Part shown: piece by piece, positions 3,582-33,075 of the stretch
Layout of the letters: every line of letters starts with the position of its first letter
How positions within the stretch are numbered: position 1 is the stretch's first letter
DNA from: Octopus vulgaris
Lineage: Eukaryota
Assembly: GCA_951406725.2 (NCBI GenBank)
Contig: OX597835.1
Coordinates: 18,910,001-18,974,000 of the forward strand
Reading direction: 5' to 3'
Length of the DNA stretch: 64,000 bases
Translations under genes and position numbers: made by a program
Notes under the pieces: generated by a model
Seen by the model: the letters and a program-made list of their open reading frames with translations, nothing else
Databases searched by the model: none
Told to the model about the DNA's origin: nothing

Positions 3582-3795
3582 TCAAAATGTGATCGCGTGT
3601 GTACCGTTGGCGATTTTTTTCCTCCGTCTTCCCTTCTCTGGATCTTTCCTTTTCCTATGTTTCTGACGAAGAGCTCCGCTCGAAACGTAAAACCCTCCTT
3701 CTTCCCTTCCTTCCTGAGCGTTCAATAATACTATATTTGCTCCACGTTCTCGCATTGTGGTGTTTTCTCTTTGTGTTTTCATGTTTGGATTAACT
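3581..3795 (+). mobile_element. ~215-bp non-autonomous HHR-carrying element (family H1) between (TA)n tracts
   Basis: Homologous over its full length to 31527-31742 (minus strand). Contains the HHR at 3659-3693. Confidence 0.8.
3659..3693 (+). ncRNA. Minimal type I hammerhead ribozyme
   Basis: GTTT-CTGACGA-A-GAGC tcc GCTC-GAAA-CG-TA-AAAC. Helix I GUUU/AAAC, helix II GAGC/GCUC, palindromic ACGU helix III, one extra A after the core. Confidence 0.75.
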
Positions 3796-12752: not shown

Positions 12753-12961
12753 ATCATAATATAATCATAAATAACATTTACTATGTTATGTTATATCATA
12801 CAATATTTAATTGCCAGTTTAATAGCGATAGTAATAGTAAAATCCAGTATTGACATCTATTAATTAATCGTATAACATTATATATTTTAATTTCGATACA
12901 AATACTATATAGATATATATCTTTATATATATATATGTCTGTGTGTGCATATCTTTCGAAC

Positions 12962-13043
<82 letters not shown>

Positions 13044-13046
13044 TTA

Positions 13047-13111
<65 letters not shown>

Positions 13112-13113
<2 letters not shown>

Positions 13114-15727
13114 TCTATAGGCCGCCCCAAACACCCATACTGTGCTTTAAAGAATGCCTCAACAGCATTAAGTGCTTTATTCAACAGTGCCATTCTAGCA
13201 ACATACTCATGATGGGAGACTTCAATCTACCCTGTGTTGACTGGACTACAAACTGTTTGAAACCAAGCACTCCCGCCTCAACCGCTGACAAAGAAGCAGC
13301 AGAGTCACTTTTCGACTTTACGAATGAGTTTTTCTTGTCCCAACTTGTCCTTGCACCAACAAGACATCAGAACATTTTGGACCTAGTGTTTAGTAACCAC
13401 ACTAACACTATACATAACGTTACAGTGGAAAAAACCCTTCTTTCAGACCATGACATGGTTCTCTGTAACATGAAATTCCACCAGCCGAAAGCTAATCCTA
13501 GTGACCTTCCTCCAGCCCACCCATTTGACAACATGGATCTCCATAATGCCAACTGGGATGCAATCAGGAACGAGCTATCACATGTTGACTGGTCCTTTAC
13601 ACATACACACATCTCCCCAACCATAAAACATCTTGGCAGATCTTTGTAGACACCGTCACAGACATATGTGCAAAACACTCCCCACCAAGACCTGTGAACA
13701 AAAAGTGCAGAATCCCCCAAAACAGAAAAACCATTATCAGAAAAATAAAAAGAACAAACAAAAAAATTAACAAACTAAAGTACTGCCAACAGCAACACAC
13801 ACATTCGACGGCTATCGCACTGCTTGAATCCAAAAAATATAACCTCCAACAATGCATGAAGACCCTCATCAATAACCAAAGATCAGCTGAGGAGAAGTGG
13901 GCCATTGAAAAAATCAAACTCAACCCCAAAGTGTTCTTTTCATTTGCGAGGAAACGCAGGGTCACTGTCTCCACTGTAGGCCCTCTAATTGACGAAACTG
14001 GCACTCTCCAAGATAATGCCAAATCCATGGCCGAGATACTGCAGAAACAATACTGCTCTGTTTTCAGCAATCCTGATATGGCCGATCTGGGCTGTATCAG
14101 TGATGTCAACCCCCAACACACTATATCGGACATAACGTTTAGTGCCCCTGATGTCTTAGCGGCGATAAACGAAATAAAACACAATTCAGCAGTAGGCCCC
14201 GATAGGTTCCCTGCTTGTGTCCTGAAGGTGTGTCGACACCAACTTGCATCTCCCCTTGCTAATCTGTGGAGAAACTCACTGGATGCTGGCTATATTCCAA
14301 AAAACCTTCTGTCCCAGTCTGTTGTCCCAGTTTTCAAAAAGGGAAACAAGTCCCTTGCAGTGAATTACCGTCCGATCTCACTCACCTCTCATATCATCAA
14401 GGTATTTGAGAGGGTGGTGAGATCTCGAATAACCCAATTTCTGGAAAGCAACAGACGGCTGATATCCAACCAACATGGGTTCCGTAATGGAAGGGACTGC
14501 CTAACGCAGCTCCTGCATCACTTTGAGGACATTTTGAGAGCTTTGGGAGAGGGCTCCAACACCGATGTCATCTACCTTGATTTCAGTAAGGCCTTCGACA
14601 GAGTCGATCACAAGATCCTATTGAAAAAACTATCCAACATTGGTGTCTCTGGAAAGTTACTGAAATGGATCAAGTGTTTCCTGACAGACAGATCTCAACA
14701 TGTTGTAGTTGAAGAGGTAAAATCAAGCCCAGCCAAAGTCAGTAGTGGCGTTCCGCAAGGCACTGTGCTGGGCCCACTTCTTTTCATCATTTACATTAAT
14801 GACATTAATGACATCATCAAGCACAGCAACATAAAAATCTTTGCAGATGACTCCAAGCTACAGAAGGTCATAAATGAGGCGAGTGACCGGACATGCCTTC
14901 AGTCAGATCTACTGGCTGTTATCCAATGGGCAGAAAAAAACAATATGCTGCTGAACGAGGATAAATTTGAGCTAATCCACTTTGGAAAAGAGGATGCCCT
15001 GAAACTCCCATACTCCCTTCCTTCAGGTGAAATTCTCGCGGCGTCCAACAACATCAGAGACCTGGGAGTAATTGTGGACAACAACATAAGCTGGGCCACT
15101 CATATAAACACCAAAGTTGACATGGCCCGCAGAATGTGTTCCTGGATTCTCAGAACTTTCCAGTCGAGAGATATCCACACCATTATCCTTCTCTTCTCCA
15201 CTTTTGCCCGACCCCACCTTGAATACTGTTGTCCACTGTGGTCTCCCCACACAATACAAGGTATCATAAAAGTTGAAGCACCTCAAAGGGCAATCATAAA
15301 AAAGATAGATGGCATGACAGGCCTCGACTATTGGGTTCGACTAGAAAAGCTAAAACTCTATTCTCACCAACGTCGTCGTGAGCGCTACATCATCTGCATG
15401 ATGTGGAAAATATTCCATCAGCATTGCCCAAATGATGTTGGCATCACCTTTAAGGTACATCCAAGGCTTGGGCCCCGTGCCATCCGCCCAAAACAAAAAT
15501 CGCACTCTCATATCATAACAACAATACGGCACAATTATTTCACCTCAATTGGCCCCGCTCTCTTTAACATTACACCAAAACACATTAAAACAGAAACTGA
15601 CCCTATAGGGTTCAAGAAGTCTTTGGACAGATTCCTTCAAGAAATCCCGGATAAACCCCCTACACCCGGATATGTCTCTGTAAACAATAACTCTCTACTT
15701 GAGTGGGCCATAGTGCCCAAATTCTGA
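13112..15727 (+). pseudogene. LINE ORF2 (endonuclease-reverse transcriptase), frameshifted at ~13595-13630
   Basis: The frame of ORF 12945-13649 (real part from ~13112) switches to the frame of ORF 13694-15727 (SWQIFVDTVTDICAKHSP...). The 677-aa segment is uninterrupted. Confidence 0.9.
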
Positions 15728-29846: not shown

Positions 29847-31401
29847 TTCTTTAACCAGCTGTCCTAATATCGAATCTGCTTCATCTGCGTATGCTCTCTC
29901 ATGTATCGAAATATATCTAGGATTATATTATCGCAATTGTCCTGCGATAATGTTAAAGAACGGTTGCGAGGGATGTTGGTATTTCCAGCAGGTAGAATGA
30001 AATCTCTCCTTGCTTGTGCATTGTGCGGTATATCTAAGAATTGCTGCAATGATATGATATGAATATCTGGCCGTAGAAACCATGATAGCAATGGACGATA
30101 TATTTCTTATTATCCTATGTTTCTGATGCTGACGTTCGTTATTGGTAAGATTAACTAATGGTATGTAAATATGAGATGAAATTTGCTGTAACACAGAATT
30201 GCTCTTCTCTTTAGAGATTTATAACCGTATTGGTTTGGGAGGACTCTGATGATATATTCATGAAGAGCTACCTTTTAAGAACGAAAATGATGAAGGGTTT
30301 TAAGATTATACGTACAGTTTAGTTCGTAATAAACAAACGTATTCCGGTGTGTAGAGGTGTTCCTTTAGGCAATTTTCATTCTCTGAAATAAATTAGGACG
30401 CAAGTGTTTTGCTTGCTTGTATAGAATTTACATACACTGGACAATGTTACAATATATTTCAGAAGACGTGTTTTATCATAAAAGTGCGATGACTAAGAAT
30501 TCTTCTGTCTACTTTAGACTGTATATATACACACATACTTATATGCCTGTATTCTATTAGACTATGTAGATAATTTAAATTATTTCTTTCTAATTTTTAG
30601 TCTATTTTAAGTAAACCTACTTATAGAAAATTAGTTAATCAAACTTCTTAGTTCTTTTATATACTACTGATAAATTTTGATAATCCCAAACCTATAATAT
30701 AACGGTTTCATTATGAAAAATAACTCTATTTCCTTTCTTCTGACCTCTTACTGTATTCTCATAACTTGGCAATGTATTAATAGTAACATTAATAAATAAA
30801 GAAATAAATTAAATGACCTCCGTTCGAATATTGCACTAAATACGCTAAGATGTTTTCCTATAGAAACAACCTTTGACCTCCCCTTTTCACCTTCCCATTT
30901 CCTCTTTATATAGCAATTAGCAACAGTAGGTGGTCAAATTTAACATTCCTCCTTTAAGCTCTGTGGTTCTTGCAGATTTCTATACCGGTCAGCAGTTCGT
31001 CTCCACTATAAGACTGTCGCTACGCTTCACTGAACCTCCTACAACCCCCTCGGATTCTAACATAGCACAATGTATCCAAAATATCTTCACACAGCTTGAA
31101 TCACACTTTACTATGAACTATATATGGATAAATACATATTCTGTGAGTACGGTACCTCTCATCATATCTCCAGAAATCAAACTTTCTTCAATATGGATAA
31201 ACTCACATCCCCACTTTCATCTTCACTTTCTGGAAAACTAAGAGGTTTTGAAAAAAATTTTTAACTTTATATATGACTGTGCAAAACTAAAAGAACTTTT
31301 AGAAATCAATTTGTTAACTAAATCTCATTTTTATAGAACTTTCCATGATGTTTCACGAGTGTAACATTACCCCCTTTGATGTTTGGGGATCTCAGATGTT
31401 C

Positions 31402-31489
31402 TTTCGGCTGATGAGTACGGGTCACCTATATTACTGCAATTTTTGTAGCCTTATTAAAGATGTCTTCGTACGAAACAATTGTACCGAAA
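31402..31489 (+). ncRNA. Apparently intact type I hammerhead ribozyme
   Basis: TTTCGG-CTGATGA-GTACGG...TCGTAC-GAAA-CAATTG-TA-CCGAAA. Perfect 6-bp helix I, canonical core, 6-bp helix II, palindromic ACAATTGT helix III; predicted cleavage after A31483. A distal GGATC/GATCC pair (31387-31391/31494-31498) extends helix I. Confidence 0.85.
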
Positions 31490-31526
31490 TATTGATCCAT
31501 TCTTGTTGCTTTTTTCCTATATATAT

Positions 31527-31739
31527 AGTTAATCCAAACATGAAACCACAAAGAGAAAACACAACAACGCGAGTACGTGGAACAAGTATAGCATTATAGG
31601 ACGCTCAGGAAAGAAGGAAAGAAGCAGGGTTTAACGTTTCGAGCGGAGCTCTTCGTCAGAAACATAGGAAAAAGAAAGATTGAAAGAAGAGATGGCGGAG
31701 GGAAAAAAATCACCAACGGTACACACGCGGTCACATTTT

Positions 31740-32038: not shown

Positions 32039-33075
32039 ATGCAAAAAGCAACATTCGTAAGCTGAGGAATGAGATGGGGCACGGTGGAGGTGAGGTTTGC
32101 AACAAAAGAAGAAGCGGCCTCACACTCCGCAGATATCCTGAGATCGGAAAATGTGGTGCTCTTACCTACGTATATGGAAAGGCGCCGCCACGACCGGGTC
32201 AAGATAGCAAAGGTGCCATCTGATATAAAGACGGAGTGGTTGATAGCAGCCATCATAAAGATCACCGAAGATTGGTCAGATCTCACAGAGGTTGGAAGAA
32301 CAGACATGCTCAATTGTTGGGGAAGCGGAGTTGAGATGTGGCTCTGCGCCACATTTGAAGATATAGAGAGGCTTCCCTAGCAAATAGAGATTGAAGGGGA
32401 AAATTCCTTGAATGTGATAGTAGAGGGTCGCAGACCCAATTGCTACCTCTGCGGTGAAAGGGGACCTATAAAATTGAAGTGCCCGCAATATAAAAATAAA
32501 CAGAACGAGCCGATACAGTGTGAGAAAGAGGTGACAGAGGGAGAAATGGAGAGGCAAGGAAGGATGGAGAGAGAAATAGAAAAGATAATAACTAAGAACT
32601 GTGAGTAAGAGAAGGAAGAGATAGAGAAAGAAAGAAAAGCGACAAATGAGGGAGCGATGGAATCGTCAGCCCCAAGAGAAGGAAGAAGGCAAATTCAAGG
32701 CAAGTGTTACAGAAAGCGACAGCAGAAGCATAGAAGACGTACATAAAGGATATAGAGCTGCCTGAAACACAAGAATTAGAGAAAAGACCAGAAGGTGCAA
32801 AGACCAGTGAGTTTAAAAGTGAGCATAAAGGAGTACTGATTTTTTAGAGGAAATCAACAGAGGTAGAGAAGAAAATATCAAAGTGGAAAAAATTTGGTGA
32901 GAGTGAAACTGCCTAAGGAGAGGTTTGCTGAGGAGGAAAGGTGTGTGATGGTGAGTGAGTCGGTGAGCAACGAACTGTGGAGACATTACAGAGAGTTCAT
33001 AGCATGATTTGGATGGGCCGGTGTACTATAATGGAAAGCCGCCGGTTGTGGACTTTACAAGACTGGAAAATTTAA
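32039..33075 (+). pseudogene. Decayed non-LTR ORF1 (RRM-like region + CCHC zinc knuckle)
   Basis: ORFs 32069-32380 and 32408-32608 share a frame across one TAG. TVEVRF, RVKIAKVP and VEGRRPNCYLCGERG(P)IKLKC (Cx2Cx4Hx4C with H lost) are followed by an acidic/basic low-complexity tail. Confidence 0.65.

What the first reader, a model, noticed from the sequence alone, without database searches (positions are those of the whole stretch)
31387..31663. Best-preserved hammerhead, tail-to-tail with a second HHR element
31402-31489 has all canonical core nucleotides, perfect helices I and II, an 8-nt palindromic helix III and a distal helix I extension across an internal loop, which could contact loop II. 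It is the likeliest active ribozyme in the window. About 140 nt downstream, across a short (TA)n, an H1 element places another HHR on the opposite strand, so transcripts in either direction could be cut within this locus (inference).
Basis: partly seen in the sequence, partly recalled or inferred. Interest (0 to 1): 0.7.

Follow-up and report, generated by a model that had tools for sequence, protein, structure and literature searches.

The report
Two Penelope retrotransposon tails sharing (TA)n
These are the broken tail ends of two common jumping genes (Penelope-like retrotransposons) that sit back to back in one short TA repeat, about as often as chance would give; each carries its family's usual hammerhead RNA motif, which is predicted to cut poorly on its own.

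Summary
The motifs are real; the special reading is not supported. HHR1 (31402-31489, +) is the 3' hammerhead of a 5'-truncated Hydra-clade Penelope-like element (PLE). Longer copies carry the RT/GIY-YIG ORF with the Hydra motifs, and there are 881 exact tails genome-wide. HHR2 (31663-31629, -) is a minimal hammerhead in the last 213 nt of a Neptune-type PLE (19,347 exact tails). Both families end in (TA)n. Six tail-to-tail junctions were found against 3.5 expected (P=0.14), so the pair looks like co-insertion. Monomer helix III is predicted at 4% or less. Two subfamilies keep the palindrome through a double change, which favours a dimeric ribozyme. Copies end about 35 or 155 nt past the cut, so the template was uncut or re-ligated. 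In 21 of 21 inverted insertions there is one long and one short end. The scan has noted many hammerheads elsewhere in this genome; the eight listed are rearranged types in other elements.

The parts
30551..31518 (+). 5'-truncated copy of a Hydra-clade Penelope-like element: about 1 kb of 3' UTR only, starting about 40 nt after the ORF stop, with the short (+35 nt) 3' end
   Evidence: 86-94% identical to the 3' UTR of long copies that carry the RT/GIY-YIG ORF; 881 exact tail matches
31402..31489 (+). HHR1: type I hammerhead; core 31408-414, helix II 31415-421/31465-471 with a 43-nt extension, GAAA 31472-475, predicted cut after A31483
   Evidence: pair table over 30 distinct copies
31475..31482 (+). 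Palindromic helix III, ACAAUUGU; 8-bp self-duplex of -6.4 kcal/mol, monomer hairpin probability 0.04 or less
   Evidence: the sister subfamily has ACGAUCGU
31387..31498 (+). Possible distal helix I extension, GGAUC 31387-391 / GAUCC 31494-498; perfect in this copy, bulged in most of the family
   Evidence: absent from the alignment consensus fold
31518..31527 (.). (TA)5 target microsatellite shared by the two 3' ends
   Evidence: sequence; both families end in (TA)n
31527..31739 (-). 'H1': terminal 213 nt of a Neptune-type Penelope-like element; second copy at window 3584-3795
   Evidence: 19,347 exact tails; four loci link it through about 1.7 kb of CA-rich UTR to PLE ORF sequence
31629..31663 (-). 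HHR2: minimal hammerhead; 4-bp helix I, extra A after the core, 4-bp helix II, ACGU palindrome, predicted cut after U31633
   Evidence: matches the minimal PLE hammerhead of PMC4209133
31742..31832 (.). (TA)n on the 5' side of H1

Best explanation
The locus holds two truncated Penelope-like retrotransposon 3' ends, one Hydra-clade and one Neptune-type, each with its family's standard hammerhead, which likely inserted independently into the same (TA)n and probably do nothing together. Shown: the identity of both parent elements, their copy numbers, the shared (TA)n target, a chance-level rate of tail-to-tail junctions, and the two fixed 3' ends of the Hydra family. Inferred from published PLE work: the element's GIY-YIG endonuclease nicks (TA)n and reverse transcription starts inside the RNA, downstream of the hammerhead, so every copy inherits the motif. 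Inferred from folding and the conserved palindrome: HHR1 would cut only as a dimer or with protein help, in the RNA of the active parent. This fossil copy lacks the 5' end, the ORF and a tandem partner, and is predicted to cut little if at all.
For: Hydra parent: locus L070 has an ORF interrupted by one in-frame stop, with RWR, DKT, YRDD, CxCX5C, GIY-YIG without CCHH, CxxC and CxH, the features listed in PMC8557442 section 11. 303 homologs of the RT region were found, the best 120 at 36-47% identity. Neptune-type parent: 4 of 4 extended loci carry PLE ORF sequence upstream of H1; L165 shows DKG, YIDD, CX4CxxC and CCHH. Junction counts: Hydra/H1 tail-to-tail 6; H1/H1 tail-to-tail 39, which predicts 3.5, P=0.14; H1 tail-to-head 8 against 9.7 expected. 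Palindrome: of 87 readable copies, 53 CGATCG, 31 CAATTG, 2 CGATTG, 1 CAATTA. Folding: helix III probability 0.04 or less in all constructs and copies. 3' ends: 44 of 98 long, the rest short. Papers: the single minimal PLE hammerhead tested did not cut and dimers cut weakly (PMC4209133); the Poseidon hammerhead needed protein and was not required for insertion (PMC11167929).
Against: Six junctions is above the 3.5 expected, and the test uses exact short patterns and spacers up to 33 nt, so a modest enrichment is not excluded; one more junction with a longer TA run was seen (L011). A trimmed HHR1 (31400-31491) folds helices I and II at over 0.9, and 31387-31498 at about 0.56, so activity depends on context. 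HHR1 has longer helices than the minimal motifs that were tested in print. No Hydra hammerhead assay was seen in the papers read. Pfam gave no hit for the Hydra ORF, so the clade call rests on motifs and alignment, not on a tree. The order of insertion is unresolved.
Confidence: 0.88

Rival explanations
1. The hammerhead cuts tandem transcripts of the parent element and the unit RNA is ligated into a circle, which is then the template for reverse transcription; this copy is still a fossil of that cycle.
For: The long 3' end is the element's own 5' UTR, following the hammerhead directly, as a circle would give. The model is proposed in PMC4209133. The core, helices I and II and the palindrome are conserved.
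Against: A tandem read-through transcript gives the same layout. 0 of 98 copies begin at the cut, but none was the upstream repeat of a full-length copy, so the test is weak. The near-complete L070 arm stops about 25 nt short of the cut. In Poseidon, uncut RNA was the main substrate.
Confidence: 0.3
2. HHR1 is an active monomeric ribozyme stabilised by a distal helix I / helix II contact, and cuts any transcript that runs through the locus on the + strand.
For: Perfect core, 6-bp helix I and 7-bp helix II. The distal helix has probability 0.97 in the 31387-31498 construct. One co-change AUC/GAU to AUU/AAU separates the subfamilies: 21 AUU/AAU, 7 AUC/GAU, 2 mismatched of 30.
Against: Monomer helix III probability is 0.04 or less. 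With native flanks helices I and II drop to 0.02 or less because a rival hairpin pairs the 3' strand of helix II with the cleavage site. The distal helix is bulged in most copies and absent from the alignment fold. Helix II has no small terminal loop.
Confidence: 0.12
3. The opposed pair is a selected two-way terminator or cleavage cassette.
For: The same junction recurs at 6 exact loci plus one longer one.
Against: The rate fits independent insertion. The partners come from different clades and subfamilies, with different spacer lengths. The two palindromes cannot form a mixed duplex (+0.9 kcal/mol). One RNA carries only one of the two motifs in sense.
Confidence: 0.03

Closest known systems
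Hydra clade of Penelope-like elements, including Hydra-1_Obim (Craig et al. 2021, PMC8557442; read: passages, section 11, supplement part 2 and search rows)
   Same: C-terminal GIY-YIG ORF with DKT, RWK-like, CxCX5C, CxxC and CxH motifs and no CCHH; (TA)n target; canonical type I hammerhead near the 3' end with a self-complementary helix III; inverted 5'-truncated partner copies.
   Different: A different family: the hammerhead sequence does not match the Hydra-1_oBim row in their File S2. The element is at least 4.2 kb (theirs are mostly under 3 kb) because of Asn-rich inserts and a 1-kb 3' UTR. Helix II carries a 43-nt extension (loop 2 is 3-10 nt in their Hydra rows). The optional tail is 121 nt, not 30-40.
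Minimal hammerheads of metazoan PLEs (Cervera and de la Pena 2014, PMC4209133; read: parts 1-2 of 4, abstract to methods)
   Same: HHR2 fits: short helix I, unpaired base between positions 9 and 10.1, G10.1-C11.1 pair, palindromic 15.2-16.2. Thousands of solo copies from truncated PLEs and nearby opposite-strand pairs are described there.
   Different: HHR2 has a 4-bp helix II (theirs are often 7-8 bp). Their opposite-strand pairs are not assigned to two different clades.
Poseidon PLE of Anolis, PAc (Frangieh et al. 2024, PMC11167929; read: parts 1-2 of 4, the main text)
   Same: Copies end at two fixed sites downstream of the hammerhead cut; AT-rich target.
   Different: Different clade. The two sites are 121 nt apart here and lie in the 5' UTR, 54 nt or more before the ATG, not inside the ORF. 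No biochemistry exists for this family.
Non-LTR retrozymes of animals (Cervera and de la Pena 2020, PMC7229834; read: passages)
   Same: Type I hammerhead with a weak palindromic helix III that works better as a dimer.
   Different: Retrozymes are short non-coding tandem repeats with conserved loop 1-loop 2 contacts. These two motifs are dispersed 3' ends of ORF-bearing PLEs.

Membership tests
Type I hammerhead ribozyme (HHR1) | Core CUGANGA and GAAA, NUH triplet, helices I and II | tested here: met
Type I hammerhead ribozyme (HHR1) | Stable helix III | tested here: inconclusive
   Not formed as a monomer (probability 0.04 or less); 8-bp duplex of -6.4 kcal/mol as a dimer
Type I hammerhead ribozyme (HHR1) | Helix I / loop II tertiary contact | tested here: inconclusive
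   No small loop II; distal helix has one co-change and a bulge in most copies
Type I hammerhead ribozyme (HHR1) | Mg2+-dependent self-cleavage | not testable with these tools
   needs an assay
Hydra-clade PLE (parent of HHR1) | Single RT ORF with C-terminal GIY-YIG | tested here: met
   L070 ORF with one in-frame stop; aligned end to end with 7 homologs; Pfam no hit
Hydra-clade PLE (parent of HHR1) | DKT in place of DKG, RWK motif | tested here: met
   ADKTG and IRWRT (RWR variant) in L070
Hydra-clade PLE (parent of HHR1) | CxCX5C linker, no CCHH, CxxC and CxH around the conserved E and N | tested here: met
   CNCRIKSKC, CQLC, CIH, against the text
Hydra-clade PLE (parent of HHR1) | (TA)n insertion and 3' hammerhead | tested here: met
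Hydra-clade PLE (parent of HHR1) | Length generally under 3 kb | tested here: not met
   At least 4.2 kb in L070; a tendency in the paper, not a diagnostic
Hydra-clade PLE (parent of HHR1) | Phylogenetic placement with reference Hydra RTs | not tested
   reference proteins were not available as session sequences
Neptune-type PLE (parent of H1/HHR2) | RT with DKG, CX2-5CxxC linker, C-terminal GIY-YIG with CCHH | tested here: met
   L165: ADKGG, YIDD, CSRSRCNTC, IYCIKCNLC..H..H in frameshifted pieces
Neptune-type PLE (parent of H1/HHR2) | Separation from Nematis by phylogeny | not tested
   assigned on the linker motif only
Non-LTR retrozyme | Short non-coding tandem repeat with no ORF-bearing parent | tested here: not met
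   Both motifs trace to ORF-bearing elements; neither lies in a tandem array here

The most novel reading that the evidence does not exclude
In this Hydra family every inverted insertion has exactly one long-tailed and one short-tailed arm (21 of 21; about 4e-7 if arms were independent). The boldest reading is that a dimeric element protein nicks both strands of (TA)n and primes the two strands at two fixed sites 121 nt apart, on one RNA or on two RNAs held together by the palindromic helix III. The hammerhead would then serve partly as an RNA-pairing signal rather than only as a cutter. That would explain PLE head-to-head insertions by one mechanism and make it testable in vitro. A tail at only one end is already described qualitatively (PMC3846280, PMC8557442); the strict rule, the 121-nt spacing and the link to two-strand priming did not appear in the passages I read from searches.
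Probability: 0.3. Interest if true: 0.5.

Novelty: new member of a known kind. Interest (0 to 1): 0.18.

Why it matters
As a locus it matters little: it is two fossil retrotransposon ends among hundreds and tens of thousands of copies. It adds a Hydra-clade family with an unusually long helix II and a 121-nt tail. It also gives two family-level facts that bear on how PLEs move: a compensatory change that keeps the helix III palindrome, and a strict one-long, one-short rule for inverted insertions.

Tried and rejected
Rfam found nothing at gathering score and only microsatellite noise by E-value. The window-wide repeat finder was swamped by microsatellites. Pfam gave no hit for the Hydra ORF or for 7 homologs. 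An RT fragment upstream of H1 in L032 is a separate PLE family: 0 of 19 other loci join it to H1 in line, and the related family fetched has its own 3' end. One search used the wrong side of L046 (a strand slip) and says nothing about the H1 parent; two rows of the alignment (L068) were also mis-oriented and were ignored. RNA: no RNA holder listed. Four contig sets guessed to be RNA matched both families with other letters and no listed piece spans the junction; contigs cannot show ends or strand, so this is no evidence either way. Test for copies that begin at the cut: 0 of 98, low power. Long-tailed arms are the longer arm in only 13 of 21 pairs, so tail length does not predict arm length. 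A mixed HHR1/HHR2 dimer is rejected. My first reading that the distal helix has no support was softened after the subfamily co-change appeared. No earlier notes near this place.

Full report
Setting. The window is G000:C22:18910001-18974000 in a 2.8-Gb animal genome, AT-rich and full of microsatellites (131 runs of (TA)5 or longer). It looks octopus-like; this is an inference from its character, a homolog named from Argonauta and earlier notes.

Observation. A strict type I descriptor finds one hit in 64 kb, core at 31408 and cut after A31483, with helices of 6, 7 and 4 pairs; 100 shuffles give a mean of 0.06. Helix II has 5 Watson-Crick and 2 G-U pairs and ends in a 43-nt extension. On the minus strand, 31663-31629 is a minimal hammerhead with an extra A after the core, an ACGU palindrome and a 4-bp helix I; the cut sites are 150 nt apart. 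A relaxed scan finds four further cores with a palindromic helix III: an intact H1 copy at 3663 and damaged ones at 2974, 20730 and 56003; a fifth row (42890, no helix II) I count as noise. Rfam has no match.

Parent of HHR1. The 191 nt around HHR1 had 1398 first-look candidates in the genome, 40 of them scored, at 94-97% identity. Homology runs from 30551 to the TA run. Of 12 extended loci, 7 carry ORF pieces upstream, and L070 carries the whole ORF with one in-frame stop. It has RWR, DKT, YRDD, Asn-rich inserts, CxCX5C, GIY-YIG without CCHH, CxxC and CxH. These are the Hydra-clade features in PMC8557442 section 11. That paper's supplement lists an octopus Hydra family with a different hammerhead (I saw part 2 of 59 and search rows, so other parts may hold closer sequences). 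The window copy is 3' UTR only. The exact 16-nt tail occurs 881 times (control 10).

Parent of HHR2. The 213-nt 'H1' had 2637 first-look candidates and 19,347 exact tails (control 33). All 30 fetched copies end at the same base, nearly always in (TA)n; 6 of them extend further 5'. A search with that extension gave 30 loci, all followed by H1. Four showed GIY-YIG sequence upstream. Extending those four gave a Neptune-type ORF (DKG, YIDD, CX4CxxC, CCHH; fullest in L165) and about 1.7 kb of CA-rich UTR before H1. H1 is therefore the commonest truncation of an autonomous PLE, not a separate short element. The core is intact in 26 of 30 best-matching copies (a biased sample).

Is tail-to-tail special? 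Exact junctions with spacers up to 33 nt number 6 for Hydra/H1, this one included, and 39 for H1/H1, four of them in one duplicated block. The H1/H1 rate predicts 3.5 Hydra/H1 pairs, P(6 or more)=0.14; with the block counted once it predicts 3.2, P=0.11. H1 tail-to-head junctions number 8 against 9.7 expected from 2410 background-corrected heads; 4 of the 8 lack a TA run and are probably tandems. In an unbiased sample, 1 of 98 Hydra tails faced an H1. One more junction with a longer TA run lies outside the pattern (L011). Shared targeting is enough to explain the pair.

Is this copy special? I fetched the first 100 listed tail matches: 98 are family members and 59 have an intact core. The rival fold pairs the 3' strand of helix II with the cleavage site and helix I. 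Its G-U at helix II position 6 is A-U in the 29 other variants. A trimmed construct folds well (over 0.9), so context decides. Helix III never exceeds 0.04 as a monomer, while the palindrome gives an 8-bp duplex of -6.4 kcal/mol.

Palindrome. Among the first 100 listed matches of an open pattern I counted by hand 42 ACGATCGT, 37 ACAATTGT, 3 ACGATTGT, 1 ACAATTAT and 17 unrelated. The tail sample gives 53, 31, 2 and 1, with 13 unreadable. Two subfamilies differ at two positions and both stay palindromic. This is one event and both changes are CpG-type transitions, so it is support, not proof. The distal helix shows one co-change (AUC/GAU to AUU/AAU) but is bulged in most copies and is not in the alignment fold: inconclusive.

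Mechanism. Hydra copies end at two fixed sites, about 35 and 155 nt past the cut; 44 of 98 are long, and the extra 121 nt is the element's 5' UTR. H1 ends 106 nt past its cut. The template therefore ran across the cleavage site, uncut or re-ligated. This matches PMC11167929: two internal start sites make the optional tail, both target strands are cut and extended, and the hammerhead needs protein and is not required for insertion. PMC4209133 found no cleavage by the single minimal PLE hammerhead tested and weak cleavage by dimers, and proposes the circular alternative. No copy begins at the cut (0 of 98), but that test had little power.

Family-level rule. All 21 inverted pairs in the sample have one long and one short end (about 4e-7 if independent). 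A tail at one end only is described in PMC3846280 (passages) and PMC8557442. The strictness suggests coupled priming of both strands at the two sites; this is my novel case and it is inference.

Verdict. Two ordinary PLE hammerheads in fossil copies, adjacent because both families target (TA)n. A new member of a known kind; interest 0.18.

Noticed in passing
loci L168-L246 (G000 C1, C2): 21 of 21 head-to-head inverted insertions of the Hydra family have exactly one 121-nt-tailed arm and one short arm; among 58 solo matches 23 are long.
   Followed up: partly
window 2974 (-), 20730 (-), 56003 (-), 3663 (+): Further type I hammerhead cores with palindromic helix III (ACAUGU, ACAAUUGU, ACAUAUGU, ACGU); the first three have a damaged helix II and probably belong to other PLE families.
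   Followed up: partly
window 13589-15727 (+): 712-aa open frame with a reverse transcriptase domain (Pfam RVT_1, E 1e-30), preceded by an endonuclease-like frame at 12891-13649; a fairly intact LINE.
   Followed up: no
window 32066-32490 (+): Broken frame ending in a degenerate zinc-knuckle-like motif (CYLCGERGPIKLKC), resembling a LINE ORF1 (recalled resemblance; Pfam no hit).
   Followed up: no
L124-L130: A separate, young-looking Neptune-like PLE family with a long open frame (706 aa in L125), inverted arms and (TA)n ends; its 3' UTR has an ACCGGT palindrome but no canonical core in my scan.
   Followed up: partly
L070:2207-4537 (-), L061, L063, L069: Two long Asn-rich inserts lie in frame between the RT thumb and the endonuclease of the Hydra ORF; similar inserts are described in rotifer Penelope elements (PMC3846280).
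   Followed up: no
L063 and L065 (G000:C2, 32 kb apart); L006 and L007 (C13): Hydra copies duplicated together with their flanks (98% over 7 kb for L063/L065): segmental duplication or assembly redundancy.
   Followed up: no
L002:1273-2100: An H1, a Hydra end and what looks like a third hammerhead-type element are stacked across successive (TA)n runs.
   Followed up: no
window 3584-3795 and H1 loci L032-L060: H1 copies share a sharp 5' boundary at TTCAAAATGTG although the parent continues upstream; a preferred truncation point or a short internal transcript.
   Followed up: partly
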